Below, piece after piece: positions 1,460 to 3,830 of a stretch of DNA of 64,000 nt (position 1 is the stretch's first letter; every line of letters begins with the position of its first letter). A model generated the notes under the pieces. It searched no databases and was not told where the DNA came from. It saw nothing but the letters and a program-made list of their open reading frames with translations. Both the position numbers and the translations under genes were made by a program. This DNA comes from Candidatus Spongiisociaceae bacterium (GTDB lineage: Bacteria > Actinomycetota > Acidimicrobiia > Spongiisociales > Spongiisociaceae): contig CBDCOH010000002.1 in the NCBI GenBank assembly GCA_965219685.1, forward strand, positions 128,001 to 192,000, in the 5' to 3' direction.

Positions 1460-2169
1460 TTACAGTTCCATGCCGGGATCGACGTTGCGGATGACGGTGG
1501 CAGGGTGGTCGGGCGTGGCTACCTTCAGCCGGTCTTCGGCGAGGTCGAGGTAGGCGGGTTCGATGTCGTACACGACCGAGTCGCGGCCTGCCAGAGCCGC
1601 GGCGACACAAGTGGTGCCTGACCCGCCGAAGGGATCCAGCACCGTGTCGGCCACGAACGAGAACATTCGGACCAGACGGTTTGCTAGCTCGACAGGAAAG
1701 GGGGCCGGGCGGTCCGGTGACGATGTACCCCCGATGTCCGTCCAGAACGCCCGGTACCACGCGTGATAGTCGTCCTTGGGGATGCGGGACAGCCAGCGCT
1801 GCTCCTCGGTGGGCTTGCGGTAGCCGCCGGGCTTCCGTAGGAGAAGGATGTACTCGATCTCGCTCTTGATGATCCCATTCGGTTCGTACGGCTTGCCCAG
1901 GAAGTAGGTAGGGCCCGCCACCTCGGTCGTCATGTTCGTGCGCTTCCACCAGAAGATGGGGGTCAGGACATCGAAACCGGCCTGGCGGGCTTGGGAGAGG
2001 ATGTCAGCGTGCAGGGGTATAACCCGGTGGCGTCCGTGCTTACGGCGGGACAGGGTGACATCACCGACATTGATACACAGCCAGCCTCCAGGGAGAAGCA
2101 CCCGGTAGCACTCGTCCCACACTCGGGTAAGTTCCTTCTGGAACAGCTCGTAGTCATAGAGGTCACCTA
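1460..2169 (-). pseudogene. Site-specific DNA methyltransferase (N4-C/N6-A, beta class), C-terminal part, interrupted by IS110
   Basis: ECYRVLLPGGWLCINVGD, PAPFPVELANRLVRMFS and motif I VLDPFGGSGTT are present. Catalytic motif IV lies on the other side of the IS. Confidence 0.9.
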
Positions 2170-2171
2170 AT

Positions 2172-2372
2172 GGGGGTCCACCACTTCTGCCGGTGTTTCT
2201 GGGAGGGTGTGGTGGTTGAGCTGGCTGGCCGGTGAGTACTGATGGCACCCGGAACGTTGATTCCTAGAGCTAGAGCGTACCCCGGCCGGTTCGCGAGGGT
2301 GCTTGTAGCGCTCATGGGGTGTCGTGCCGTAGAGCACTGATCCATTAGGTCGCCGCCGGGTGTCCCTCGAAG
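2172..2372 (+). ncRNA. Predicted IS110 bridge RNA (5' stem-loop, target-binding loop, donor-binding loop)
   Basis: Stems: CCACCAC 2178-2184 / GTGGTGG 2209-2215; GGCCGG..GTAC / GTAC..CCGGCC around 2227-2287 with inner GGAA/TTCC hairpin; CGAGGG / CCCTCG around 2294-2369 with inner GTGC/GCAC hairpin. Loop segments match the donor junction and target site. RNA ends are approximate. Confidence 0.8.
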
Positions 2373-2415
2373 CTCTCTGACAATGTTTTGGGACTGTTTC
2401 TGAAGGAGGCAGCAG

Positions 2416-3636
2416 ATGATCTTTGTGGGAGATGACTGGGCTGAGGCGCATCACGATGTGTGTCTGATGGACGAGGCGGGAACTCGGTTGGCTGGACGGC
2501 GGCTGCCGGAGGGCCTGGCGGGGGTGGCCCAGTTGCATGAGATGATCGCCGAGCACACATCGGATCCGGCCGAGGTGGTGTTAGGCATCGAGACCGATCG
2601 GGGCCTCTGGGTCGGTGCTCTGGTCGCAGCGGGCTATCAGGTATATGCGATCAACCCCAAGGCGGTGTCCCGTTACCGGGATCGGCACAGCATGGGCGGA
2701 GCGAAATCAGACCGTGGCGATGCCAAGGTGTTAGCCGATCTGGTACGAACCGACCGTCACAACCATCGTCCCGTGGCCGGGGACAGCCCAGAAGCGGACG
2801 GGATCAAGATCATGGCCAGAGCGCATCAGAACCTGAAATGGGCCCGGGTGCGTCACACCAACCAGATGCGCAACGCCCTCCGCGAATACTATCCCGCAGC
2901 GTTGGAAACGTTCGATGACCTGGCCCATCGCGACGCCCTTGCCGTCCTGGGCAAAGCACCCACCCCCACCCTGGGCACCCGCCTGACACTGCCCCAGATC
3001 AGAGCAGCCCTCCAGAAAGCCGGGAGGCGACGCAACCTCGACAAGGTTGCCCGCCGCATCCAGAAAGGCCTCAGAGGTGCCCACCTCACCGCACCGGAGC
3101 CGGTTGAGAACGCACTCGGGACAACAGTTGCATCACTGGTCAACATCATTGTGGAAACCAACCACCAGATCGAACAGCTCGAGCAAACCCTCGAGACCCG
3201 TTTTAGAGAACACCCGGACGCCGTCATCTACCACTCCCAGCCAGGACTCGGTACCGTGCTCGGCGCCCGGGCGCTCGGTGAGTTCGGGGACGACCCCCAA
3301 CGCTACACCAGCGCCAAGTCTCGCAGGAACTACGCCGGCACGTCGCCCATCACCATCGCATCAGGCCGCAAACACGCCGTCACGGCCCGCCACGTCCGCA
3401 ACCGGAGACTCTACGACGCCCTCGACCAATGGGCATTCTGCACCCTAACCCGAAGCCCAGGCGCCCGAGCCTTCTACGACCAACGACGAGCAGCCGACGA
3501 CGAACACCACCAAGCCCTCCGAGCCCTCGCCAACCGACTCGTAGGCATCCTCCACGGCTGCCTCAAACACCGAACCCCCTACAACGAACACACCGCCTGG
3601 GCCCACCGAACCGCCCTCGACCGAGCCGCAGCTTGA
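2416..3636 (+). CDS. IS110-family transposase/recombinase
   Basis: 406 aa with VGDDWA, GIETD and KSDRGDA (DEDD) and a C-terminal GTSPITIASG serine motif; RBS GAAGGAGG at 2402-2409. Confidence 0.95.
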   Translation: MIFVGDDWAEAHHDVCLMDEAGTRLAGRRLPEGLAGVAQLHEMIAEHTSDPAEVVLGIETDRGLWVGALVAAGYQVYAINPKAVSRYRDRHSMGGAKSDRGDAKVLADLVRTDRHNHRPVAGDSPEADGIKIMARAHQNLKWARVRHTNQMRNALREYYPAALETFDDLAHRDALAVLGKAPTPTLGTRLTLPQIRAALQKAGRRRNLDKVARRIQKGLRGAHLTAPEPVENALGTTVASLVNIIVETNHQIEQLEQTLETRFREHPDAVIYHSQPGLGTVLGARALGEFGDDPQRYTSAKSRRNYAGTSPITIASGRKHAVTARHVRNRRLYDALDQWAFCTLTRSPGARAFYDQRRAADDEHHQALRALANRLVGILHGCLKHRTPYNEHTAWAHRTALDRAAA

Positions 3637-3659
3637 CATTTACGCTCCTGGGGTGTCTA
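3633..3659 (+). promoter_or_regulatory. Half of IS110 circle-junction promoter (-35 TTGACA); -10 TCTAAT completed only after circularisation
   Basis: TTGACA 3633-3638, 17-bp spacer, then TCTA (3656-3659) plus AT (2170-2171) in the circle. Confidence 0.75.
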
Positions 3660-3830
3660 GCTGAGCCGGATTGTCCGGGTACTTCTTGAGTGTCCAGTAC
3701 GGCGGTGAAGTGACTACGAGGGCAGATGATTCATCATCGACGTCCAGCATCCGCCGGGCATCGCTGTGGATCAGCCGGTGATGAGTGGGGGAAAGCCCGT
3801 GCCGTTCGCAGCCAGCTGCAGGTTTTCCAT
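3660..3830 (-). pseudogene. DNA methyltransferase N-terminal part (motif IV TSPPY)
   Basis: Reverse strand reads HHRLIHSDARRMLDVDDESSALVVTSPPYWTLKKYPDNPAQL and joins in frame to GDLYDYELF once the IS is removed. ATG 3830 has a GAGGAG RBS but is one base out of frame at the G5 tract 3787-3791. Confidence 0.85.

What the first reader, a model, noticed from the sequence alone, without database searches (positions are those of the whole stretch)
2167..2415. IS110 left end encodes a readable bispecific guide (bridge) RNA for its own donor junction and this target site
Seen: the reconstructed circle junction is ...CGCTCCTGGGGTGT-CT-AATGG... and the empty target is ...GAGGTCAC-CT-AGCTGAG.... In the third stem-loop, 2309-2323 (CGCTCATGGGGTGTC) matches the donor left arm 3643-3657 at 14/15, and 2342-2348 (CCATTAG) is the exact reverse complement of donor right CTAATGG. 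In the second stem-loop, 2241-2249 (GATGGCACC) matches target left GAGGTCACC at 7/9, and 2268-2273 (AGCTAG) is the exact reverse complement of target right CTAGCT. Each guide pair flanks a small hairpin (GGAA/TTCC, GTGC/GCAC), and both left guides match only the C of the CT core. Established: this is the architecture of IS621-type bridge RNAs that direct IS110 recombinases. Inference: an intact RNA-programmable recombinase with a preferred target near GATGGCAC-CT-AGCT(C); this insertion is a partly mismatched hit.
Basis: partly seen in the sequence, partly recalled or inferred. Interest (0 to 1): 0.88.

Follow-up and report, generated by a model that had tools for sequence, protein, structure and literature searches.

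The report
IS110 insertion sequence with bridge RNA
This is an ordinary member of a known kind: an IS110-family mobile element whose left end encodes a bridge RNA that reads both the element's own joined ends and the chromosomal site where it inserted.

Summary
Window 2167-3658 is a 1,492-bp IS110-group element with CT at both ends. It splits a DNA methyltransferase gene. Its recombinase ORF is intact (PF01548 + PF02371; NCBIfam 'IS110 family RNA-guided transposase'). The 249-nt left end folds as a 5' stem-loop, a target-binding loop and a donor-binding loop, as in IS621. All four sequence matches are at the stated coordinates and are far above chance. Across 26 related insertions with 16 guide pairs, in five genomes of the genus, the two loop segments co-vary with the flanks. 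No class-level permutation of 20,000 reached the observed score. Stems co-vary in more distant relatives: 18 of 38 pairs have compensatory changes. Empty sites for both identical copies show a single CT.

Refinements:
- The effective left target guide is 7 nt (2243-2249), not 9.
- Handshake positions fit the IS621 model.
- The genome holds no perfect target. Both copies sit at CAC-CT-AGCT sites.

No RNA data were available, so expression and RNA dependence are inferred. The kind has been known since 2024, so this is a new member and of modest interest.

The parts
2167..3658 (+). IS110-group insertion sequence, 1,492 bp counted with the CT at both ends
   Evidence: A 100% identical second copy and three copies at 82-83% identity in the same genome end at the same boundaries. 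The empty site in relatives is shown.
2167..2168 (+). Core dinucleotide CT, left copy. The right copy is at 3657-3658.
   Evidence: Uninterrupted homologous sites hold a single CT.
2178..2215 (+). 5' stem-loop of the predicted bridge RNA
   Evidence: RNAalifold consensus, columns 12-49.
2216..2298 (+). Target-binding loop module: outer stem 2224-2239 / 2277-2290 and inner hairpin 2251-2264
   Evidence: In helix 2, 10 of 16 pairs have compensatory changes.
2243..2249 (+). It has the sense of LT-6..-1 plus core C.
   Evidence: Per-position match to flanks is 22, 24, 13 (+10 wobble), 25, 25, 26, 25 of 26.
2267..2273 (+). Right target guide GAGCTAG. Its reverse complement CTAGCTC corresponds to core CT plus RT1-5.
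   Evidence: Match to flanks is 26, 26, 26, 25, 24, 23 of 26 for core plus RT1-4 and 15 of 26 for RT5.
2274..2275 (+). Handshake positions of the target loop (AG)
   Evidence: The A can pair with donor T(-1) in 26 of the 27 copies listed (all but the aberrant L044b), and never with target C(-1). The model comes from passages of PMC11208158.
2300..2362 (+). Donor-binding loop module: outer stem 2300-2312 / 2348-2362 and inner hairpin 2324-2337
   Evidence: In helix 4, 5 of 7 pairs have compensatory changes.
2313..2323 (+). Left donor guide CATGGGGTGTC. It matches 3647-3657 at 10 of 11.
2342..2348 (+). Right donor guide CCATTAG, the reverse complement of 2167-2173. The next two bases, 2349-2350 GT, are the donor-loop handshake positions.
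   Evidence: G2349 can pair with target C(-1) in all 26 insertions. In a M. paragordonae plasmid copy the guide has C and the target has G.
2416..3636 (+). Recombinase gene, 406 aa, with a GAAGGAGG ribosome-binding site at 2402-2409
   Evidence: PF01548 at 126.5 bits and PF02371 at 39.7 bits. NF033542 at 187 bits against a cut-off of 140. IS621 structure 8wt6 at E 1.7e-5.
3633..3638 (+). TTGACA, a -35-like hexamer. In a circle it would lie 17 nt upstream of TCTAAT, which is formed across the joined ends.
   Evidence: The same arrangement occurs in 25 of 27 related copies. It was not testable with the promoter tool, and TCTAAT lacks the A at position 2.
3647..3656 (+). Left donor arm (right end of the element)
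2159..2166 (+). Left target flank GAGGTCAC
3659..3663 (+). Right target flank AGCTG
1460..2167 (-). C-terminal 235 codons of the interrupted N6/N4 DNA methyltransferase gene. The N-terminal 31 codons are at 3658-3750 on the minus strand.
   Evidence: PF01555 at 107 bits.

Best explanation
Window 2167-3658 is an intact IS110-group insertion sequence. Its 249-nt left end encodes a bridge RNA of the IS621 type. By inference from IS621, excision joins the right end to the left end through a single CT. This places TTGACA (3633-3638) 17 nt upstream of a -10-like TCTAAT, and transcription then runs through the left end. The RNA would fold into a 5' stem-loop, a target-binding loop and a donor-binding loop.

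[quoted passage not shown] In the target loop, TGGCACC (2243-2249) would pair with the bottom strand left of the target's CT, and GAGCTAG (2267-2273) with the top strand from the CT rightwards. The DEDD/serine recombinase would then exchange strands at the CT.

The optimum target is TGGCAC-CT-AGCT(C). The genome has no such site. Both identical copies sit at imperfect CAC-CT-AGCT sites.

Shown here: the anatomy, the matches, the guide-flank and stem covariation, and the empty sites. Inferred from IS621: transcription, the RNA-protein complex and the chemistry.
For: 1) Recombinase. PF01548 and PF02371 match. NF033542 'IS110 family RNA-guided transposase' scores 187 bits against a cut-off of 140. 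The protein aligns to the IS621 structure 8wt6, with D7, D99, D102 and the S316-G317 pair opposite IS621's D11, D102, D105 and S241-G242.

2) The matches are exact at the stated coordinates and rare in the genome.

3) A second copy, 100% identical, lies at C2:2495988-2497479. Its flanks are ...CTACCACAC-CT-AGCTAGC. Both copies share CAC-CT-AGCT, which occurs at only 7 further places in the genome.

4) Guide-flank covariation. Twenty-seven full-length copies with distinct flanks were collected from five genomes of the genus. One was dropped because its right end is aberrant. The remaining 26 insertions carry 16 guide pairs. Own-guide matches are 4.81 of 7 on the left and 4.35 of 5 on the right. 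Cross matches are 3.24 and 2.47. None of 20,000 class-level permutations reached the observed score, jointly or for either side. Examples: copy C matches 9/9 and 7/7, and L050 matches 7/9 and 9/9.

5) In the left-end alignment the variable columns are the two guide segments. The donor loop is nearly invariant.

6) Structure. On the close set, 98.4% of cells pair. On 26 sequences that include other families, 95.9% pair and 18 of 38 pairs carry compensatory changes. No shuffle of 500 reached this, and slid controls pair at 31-46%. Many conserved G-U pairs fit only the + strand.

7) The covariance model finds the RNA in 16 of 151 genomes of the order. This tally includes the unpublished G043, which was not used otherwise. 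The model also hits IS110 elements on Rhodococcus and Mycobacterium plasmids at 115-121 bits, and their flanks fit their own guides.

8) Empty sites show a single CT for copy A and copy B.

9) Handshake positions behave as in IS621. One relative has a CC core, and both right guides there read GG in place of AG.
Against: No RNA evidence was found. The runs available were assembled contigs of unknown kind. They showed no joined-ends contig and cannot show transcripts.

The single-sequence fold of 2167-2415 is no more stable than shuffles (z = -0.60).

The -10-like hexamer TCTAAT lacks the A at position 2 that the promoter tool requires. The joined form could not be scanned with that tool.

Rfam 15 has no family that matches the left end.

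Copy A mismatches 2 of 7 left-guide positions and RT5. Copy B pairs only 4 of 7 by Watson-Crick plus 2 wobbles.

The related sequences are kin. The alignment used for stem covariation was fitted to the model, so the statistics overstate independence.
Confidence: 0.93

Rival explanations
1. The loop segments act as DNA, for example as subterminal recombinase-binding repeats or single-strand DNA hairpins. Their likeness to ends and flanks would then reflect protein-DNA or DNA-DNA recognition without an RNA.
For: The donor-side matches alone could be read as subterminal repeats. No transcript was seen.
Against: The target-side segments co-vary with unrelated flanking DNA in 26 insertions. Fixed protein-binding sites would not do this. 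The stems keep many G-U pairs that would be A-C on the other strand, and they carry compensatory changes. The homologous IS621 system is RNA-dependent by experiment (passages of PMC11208160 and PMC11208158).
Confidence: 0.03
2. The element is a correct but no longer active bridge-RNA IS. The matches record past insertions, and the present copies do not move.
For: Copies D and E lack a full-length recombinase ORF. No joined-ends contig was found. The genome has no perfect target.
Against: Copies A and B are 100% identical over 1,492 bp, with intact 406-aa ORFs and catalytic residues. Their left donor guide matches the right end without the G mismatch seen in most genus relatives. Identical unoccupied target sites remain.
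Confidence: 0.12
3. The target-side matches at copy A are coincidental, and site choice is made by the protein alone.
For: At copy A alone, 7/9 plus a 6-mer has a chance of about 1 in 1,000 per left end. That is not negligible across a genome scan.
Against: Copy B shares the same 9-bp site. Sister elements with other loop sequences sit in sites that match their own loops.
Confidence: 0.01

Closest known systems
IS621 (E. coli) bridge recombinase and bridge RNA (Durrant et al. 2024, PMC11208160; Hiraizumi et al. 2024, PMC11208158; passages read)
   Same: - DEDD RuvC-like plus Tnp serine recombinase.
- RNA in the long left end.
- A 5' stem-loop, then a target loop, then a donor loop.
- Left guides have the sense of the top strand. 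Right guides are complementary to it and include the core.
- CT core.
- Handshake positions that pair with the non-cognate DNA.
- A variable target loop and a conserved donor loop.
- A -35 hexamer in the right end.
   Different: - The protein is only distantly related (E 1.7e-5 to 8wt6) and longer: 406 aa against a 328-residue chain.
- The host is a high-GC actinobacterium.
- The right donor guide pairs contiguously over 7 nt here. In IS621 it pairs discontiguously.
- The effective left target guide is 7 nt here. The papers report 8-9.
- No experiments exist for this element.
Unnamed 'IS110 family transposase' elements on Rhodococcus opacus B4 pROB02, Mycolicibacterium rufum and Mycobacterium paragordonae plasmids
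   Same: They share about 72% DNA identity over 93-96% of the element. They have the same left-end RNA (covariance model, 115-121 bits), the same CTAATGG start and a GGGATGTCT end. Their guides fit their own flanks.
   Different: Their target guides differ. One has a C at the donor-loop handshake position, with a G in its target. The records annotate only the transposase and no RNA.
IS1111-group elements and seekRNA (recalled from the literature; the group contrast is in PMC11208160)
   Same: The same recombinase family and the same RNA-guided logic.
   Different: In IS1111 the RNA lies in the long right end and the subterminal inverted repeats are long. Here the left end is 249 nt and the right end is 22 nt, so this is the IS110 group.

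Membership tests
IS110 family, IS110 group (bridge-RNA insertion sequences) | Recombinase with a DEDD RuvC-like domain (PF01548) and a Tnp domain (PF02371) holding a conserved serine | tested here: met
   Both Pfam domains score above their cut-offs. NF033542 scores 187 bits against 140. D7, D99, D102 and S316-G317 align to IS621's D11, D102, D105 and S241-G242. E59 lies in a G-I-E motif, but HMMER placed it two columns off.
IS110 family, IS110 group (bridge-RNA insertion sequences) | Long non-coding left end, short right end, no long terminal inverted repeats | tested here: met
   The left end is 2167-2415 (249 nt) and the right end is 3637-3658 (22 nt).
IS110 family, IS110 group (bridge-RNA insertion sequences) | Core dinucleotide at both ends that is single in the empty site | tested here: met
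   CT lies at 2167-2168 and 3657-3658. Empty sites were found in relatives and at paralogous repeats.
IS621-type bridge RNA | Two stem-loops, each with an internal loop around a small hairpin, supported by covariation | tested here: met
   Consensus fold. 18 of 38 pairs carry compensatory changes and 0 of 500 shuffles reach this. Caveat: the alignment was fitted to the model.
IS621-type bridge RNA | The first loop reads the target: its 5' side has the sense of the left flank plus core C, and its 3' side is complementary to core plus right flank. It co-varies with flanks across elements. | tested here: met
   (26 insertions, 16 guide pairs, 0 of 20,000 permutations).
IS621-type bridge RNA | The second loop reads the joined ends of the element (left and right donor guides) | tested here: met
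   10 of 11 and 7 of 7. This pair occurs nowhere else in the genome.
IS621-type bridge RNA | Handshake positions pair with the non-cognate DNA at position 7 | tested here: met
   The target-loop A faces donor T. The donor-loop G faces target C in 26 of 26. A compensating C/G occurs in one plasmid element. This shows consistency only, not function.
IS621-type bridge RNA | A sigma-70-like promoter is rebuilt across the joined ends | tested here: inconclusive
   TTGACA, 17 nt, then TCTAAT occurs in 25 of 27 copies. The -10 lacks A at position 2 and the joined form could not be given to the scan tool. No promoter was found in the integrated copy.
IS621-type bridge RNA | The RNA is made, binds the recombinase and is required for recombination | not testable with these tools
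   Only assembled contigs of unknown kind were available.
Rfam family for bridge RNA | A match to a curated covariance model | tested here: not met
   No Rfam 15 family matches 2167-2415 at E up to 10, apart from a chance lncRNA hit. This says that the library holds no fitting model. It does not say that the RNA is absent.

The most novel reading that the evidence does not exclude
This clade may be a natural record of fast re-programming and mismatch-tolerant targeting. Within one genus, 26 insertions carry 16 different guide pairs, while the rest of the left end stays about 87% identical. The copy in the window persists in a genome that holds no perfect target. It inserts at sites that share only CAC-CT-AGCT, which is 3 nt, the core, then 4 nt. 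If that 9-bp seed is the real in-vivo requirement, natural specificity is much looser than the full guide length suggests. The genus would then offer ready-made orthogonal guide/target sets for high-GC hosts.
Probability: 0.35. Interest if true: 0.4.

Novelty: new member of a known kind. Interest (0 to 1): 0.3.

Why it matters
Bridge recombinases are under development as programmable tools for inserting, excising and inverting DNA. This element adds a well-supported natural example from a high-GC actinobacterium. It comes with sister copies whose different loops and insertion sites give the guide rules directly: a 7-nt left guide, a right guide of core plus 4-5 nt, and a handshake C/G. It also shows what the element does when no perfect site exists.

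It does not change the mechanism. The 2024 papers predicted bridge RNAs in 85.7% of the catalogued IS110-group elements (passage of PMC11208160).

For annotation, the left end should be marked as an RNA gene. The split methyltransferase gene should be marked as disrupted.

Tried and rejected
- Single-sequence folding of 2167-2415 gave z = -0.60 against shuffles. It is uninformative on its own, and the consensus fold and covariation were used instead.
- The Rfam scan found no bridge-RNA family.
- Sequencing runs: four runs were laid and all were contigs. There was no joint across the ends and no usable RNA signal. Loose ends only re-found the flanks of copy B, plus one further right flank that I did not follow.
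- The promoter tool found nothing in the integrated copy and cannot see the joined form.
- I first read copies D and E as 'half-matched' insertions, in the sense of the 2026 preprint (abstract only). I rejected that reading. Unoccupied repeats in a relative show that E's left flank and D's right flank are the two halves of one site, so an inversion between the two inverted copies explains them better.
- The search for papers on bridge RNAs in Mycobacterium found none with the topic in title or abstract (listing only).
I could not check whether this element is among the predicted bridge RNAs in the supplementary data of PMC11208160.

Full report
WHAT IS THERE

Window 2167-3658 is bounded by CT at 2167-2168 and 3657-3658. 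It holds one long ORF, 2416-3636 on the + strand, of 406 aa, behind a GAAGGAGG site.

The protein matches DEDD_Tnp_IS110 (PF01548, 126.5 bits) and Transposase_20 (PF02371, 39.7 bits). It also matches NCBIfam NF033542 'IS110 family RNA-guided transposase' at 187 bits, above the cut-off of 140. Its only solved relative is the IS621 recombinase (8wt6, E 1.7e-5).

In that alignment D7, D99, D102 and S316-G317 lie opposite the residues that the structure paper names as D11, D102, D105 and S241-G242 (passages; SG position). E59 sits in a G-I-E motif like that of E60, but HMMER placed it two columns off.

The non-coding left end is 249 nt and the right end is 22 nt. This is the layout of the IS110 group, not of IS1111 (passage of PMC11208160).

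The element splits a DNA methyltransferase gene on the minus strand. The C-terminal 235 codons are at 1460-2167 and match PF01555 at 107 bits. The N-terminal 31 codons, with the SPPY motif, are at 3658-3750.

THE OBSERVATION

The two small hairpins are present.

I counted the same kinds of paired match over the whole genome, both strands, 8,841,878 positions.
- The target-type pair occurs 36 times, including the two IS copies. That gives about 1 in 1,000 for a stretch the length of the left end.
- The donor-type pair occurs twice, and both occurrences are the IS copies.

The reconstructed empty site is real. Three relatives carry the methyltransferase gene uninterrupted, and there the left flank runs straight into C[C/T]A[A/G]CTGGGC with one core dinucleotide.

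OTHER COPIES IN THIS GENOME

The genome holds a second copy that is 100% identical, three copies at 82-83% identity, and two fragments.

The identical copy B sits at ...CTACCACAC-CT-AGCTAGC. It lies inside a small repeat. Two unoccupied paralogues of that repeat show the same sequence with a single CT.

Copies A and B therefore share CAC-CT-AGCT. This 9-mer occurs at only 7 further places in the genome. The full predicted site, TGGCAC-CT-AGCT, occurs nowhere, and neither does GGCAC-CT-AGCT.

GUIDE-FLANK COVARIATION

I collected left ends from the family (13 of 29 genomes with a match) and fetched more places. This gave 27 full-length copies with distinct flanks from five genomes of the genus.

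In their alignment nearly all variation falls in two short segments, columns 75-83 and 99-107.

One copy, L044b, has an aberrant right end and was dropped. The remaining 26 insertions carry 16 different guide pairs.
- Own-guide matches over the variable positions: 4.81 of 7 on the left and 4.35 of 5 on the right.
- Guides paired with other classes' flanks: 3.24 and 2.47.
- Permuting target sets among the 16 classes reached the observed value in 0 of 20,000 trials. This held jointly and for each side.

Copy C of this genome matches its flanks 9/9 and 7/7. L050 matches 7/9 and 9/9.

By position:
- The left guide is effective over columns 77-83 (window 2243-2249). Matches are 22, 24, 13 plus 10 wobbles, 25, 25, 26 and 25 of 26.
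- Columns 75-76 are at chance (7 and 9 of 26).
- The right guide covers the core and RT1-4 (23-26 of 26) and partly RT5 (15 of 26).

The optimum for the window's element is therefore TGGCAC-CT-AGCT(C).
- Copy A pairs 5 of 7 on the left and mismatches RT5.
- Copy B pairs 4 of 7 by Watson-Crick plus two wobbles on the left, and also mismatches RT5.

DONOR LOOP AND HANDSHAKE POSITIONS

The donor loop is almost invariant among relatives. This agrees with the published contrast between a variable first loop and a conserved second loop (legend passage).

The guide proper is CATGGGGTGTC (2313-2323), which matches the right end at 10 of 11. The CGCT before it pairs in the outer stem. The right-end bases opposite it vary among relatives without compensation.

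Most genus relatives have G where A and B have T at the position before the core. More distant relatives again have T.

Five listed copies, including D and E, carry CTGCTAG in place of CCATTAG. By my reading this still pairs with CTAATGG, with one mismatch and two wobbles.

The two bases after each right guide behave like the handshake guides of IS621 (passages).
- The target-loop A can pair with the donor's T(-1) and never with the target's C(-1).
- The donor-loop G can pair with C(-1) of all 26 targets.
- A M. paragordonae plasmid element has C there, and its target has G at -1.
- One relative (L066) starts with CC in place of CT, and both of its right guides read GG in place of AG (read by eye).

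STRUCTURE

The consensus fold gives three modules: a 5' stem-loop (2178-2215), a target module (2216-2298) and a donor module (2300-2362). The guide segments are unpaired around the small hairpins.

On the 25 close sequences, 98.4% of cells pair but only 2 pairs show compensatory change.

A covariance model built from them found the RNA in 16 of 151 genomes of the order. That tally includes the unpublished G043, which I did not analyse.

On 26 sequences that include seven other families:
- 95.9% of cells pair;
- 18 of 38 pairs have compensatory changes, and 0 of 500 shuffles reach this;
- structures slid by 1-3 columns pair at 31-46%.

This alignment was fitted to the model and the sequences are kin, so the figures lean towards the structure. 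Many conserved G-U pairs fit only the + strand, which argues for an RNA of the recombinase's sense.

MORE DISTANT ELEMENTS

Ten loci from other genera were examined. A right end was found in 5 of them, and 4 of those also had a right flank. In these four the right guide matches the core plus 4, 4, 5 and 5 bases (read by eye).

The model also hits IS110 elements on plasmids of Rhodococcus opacus B4, Mycolicibacterium rufum and Mycobacterium paragordonae. There the right guides match the core plus 4 bases in all three. The left guides match 6/7, 4/7 (9/9 if one base bulges) and 5/7 (read by eye).

EXPRESSION

In a circle, TTGACA (3633-3638) would lie 17 nt upstream of TCTAAT, which forms across the junction. 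This arrangement is present in 25 of 27 copies.

The hexamer lacks A at position 2, and the tool cannot scan a joined sequence. The integrated copy shows no promoter-like site.

No RNA data were usable. Transcription, complex formation and RNA dependence are therefore inferred from IS621.

COMPARISON AND VERDICT

This works like IS621 and passes every sequence-level membership test. What it lacks is experimental evidence.

The differences from IS621 are these:
- a distant, longer protein;
- a contiguous 7-nt right donor guide;
- a 7-nt effective left target guide.

The kind is known, and bridge RNAs were predicted in 85.7% of catalogued IS110-group elements. I found no paper on this clade (listings), and I could not open supplements. 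I rate it a new member of a known kind. Confidence in the reading is 0.93 and interest is 0.3.

Noticed in passing
window 3237-3318, minus strand: Rfam Ms_AS-4 ('Actinobacteria sRNA') matches at 79.8 bits (gathering score 50), antisense to the conserved GLG...RYTSAK part of the recombinase gene. The Rfam family may simply track a conserved segment of IS110-family transposase genes.
   Followed up: no
window 1460-2167 and 3658-3750, minus strand: An N6/N4 DNA methyltransferase gene is split by the insertion after codon 31, just past its SPPY motif. Three relatives have it intact. I did not look for a partner restriction gene.
   Followed up: partly
G000:C2:3082001-3083513 (copy E, minus) and 3088162-3089651 (copy D, plus); loci L004, L005: D and E are inverted copies 4.6 kb apart and carry the same target loop. 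E's left flank and D's right flank each fit the guides, while the other two flanks do not. Unoccupied repeats in G012 read ...CAAAGCTC-CT-ATAAGGTCACATCCGC. The two good halves therefore belong to one site, and the segment between the copies was probably inverted.
   Followed up: partly
L005, right end of copy E: A 26-bp tandem duplication in the right end repeats the TTGACA hexamer.
   Followed up: no
L004, L005: Copies D and E have no 406-aa recombinase ORF. The longest ATG ORF is 268 aa and lies in another frame. They also carry the CTGCTAG variant of the right donor guide.
   Followed up: partly
G000:C2:2495943-2495987, 1842059-1842136, 3613508-3613586: Copy B's target lies in a small repeat that begins with a hairpin-like GCCGTT...AACGGC. 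Two paralogues with identical target sequence are unoccupied.
   Followed up: partly
L038-L041 (G012): Sister elements whose guides read ...GGCACC / CTGACAC sit inside tandem heptamer repeats (CACCTGA)n.
   Followed up: no
L066 (G160): This element has CC in place of CT before AATGG. Both right guides read GG in place of AG, an apparent compensated change of the core.
   Followed up: partly
L044 4908-5112 region (copy L044b, G012): The right end reads ...CCTGGGGATGCTCCTATGG in place of ...GGGGTGTCT. The replacement resembles the target site of its own guide type (GGATGCTC-CT-ATG). Unexplained.
   Followed up: no
window 3658, runs X1 and X2: Contigs of two runs continue past the right end into a flank that belongs to neither copy A nor copy B (loose ends). 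This may be a further insertion or a related element. It was not searched.
   Followed up: no
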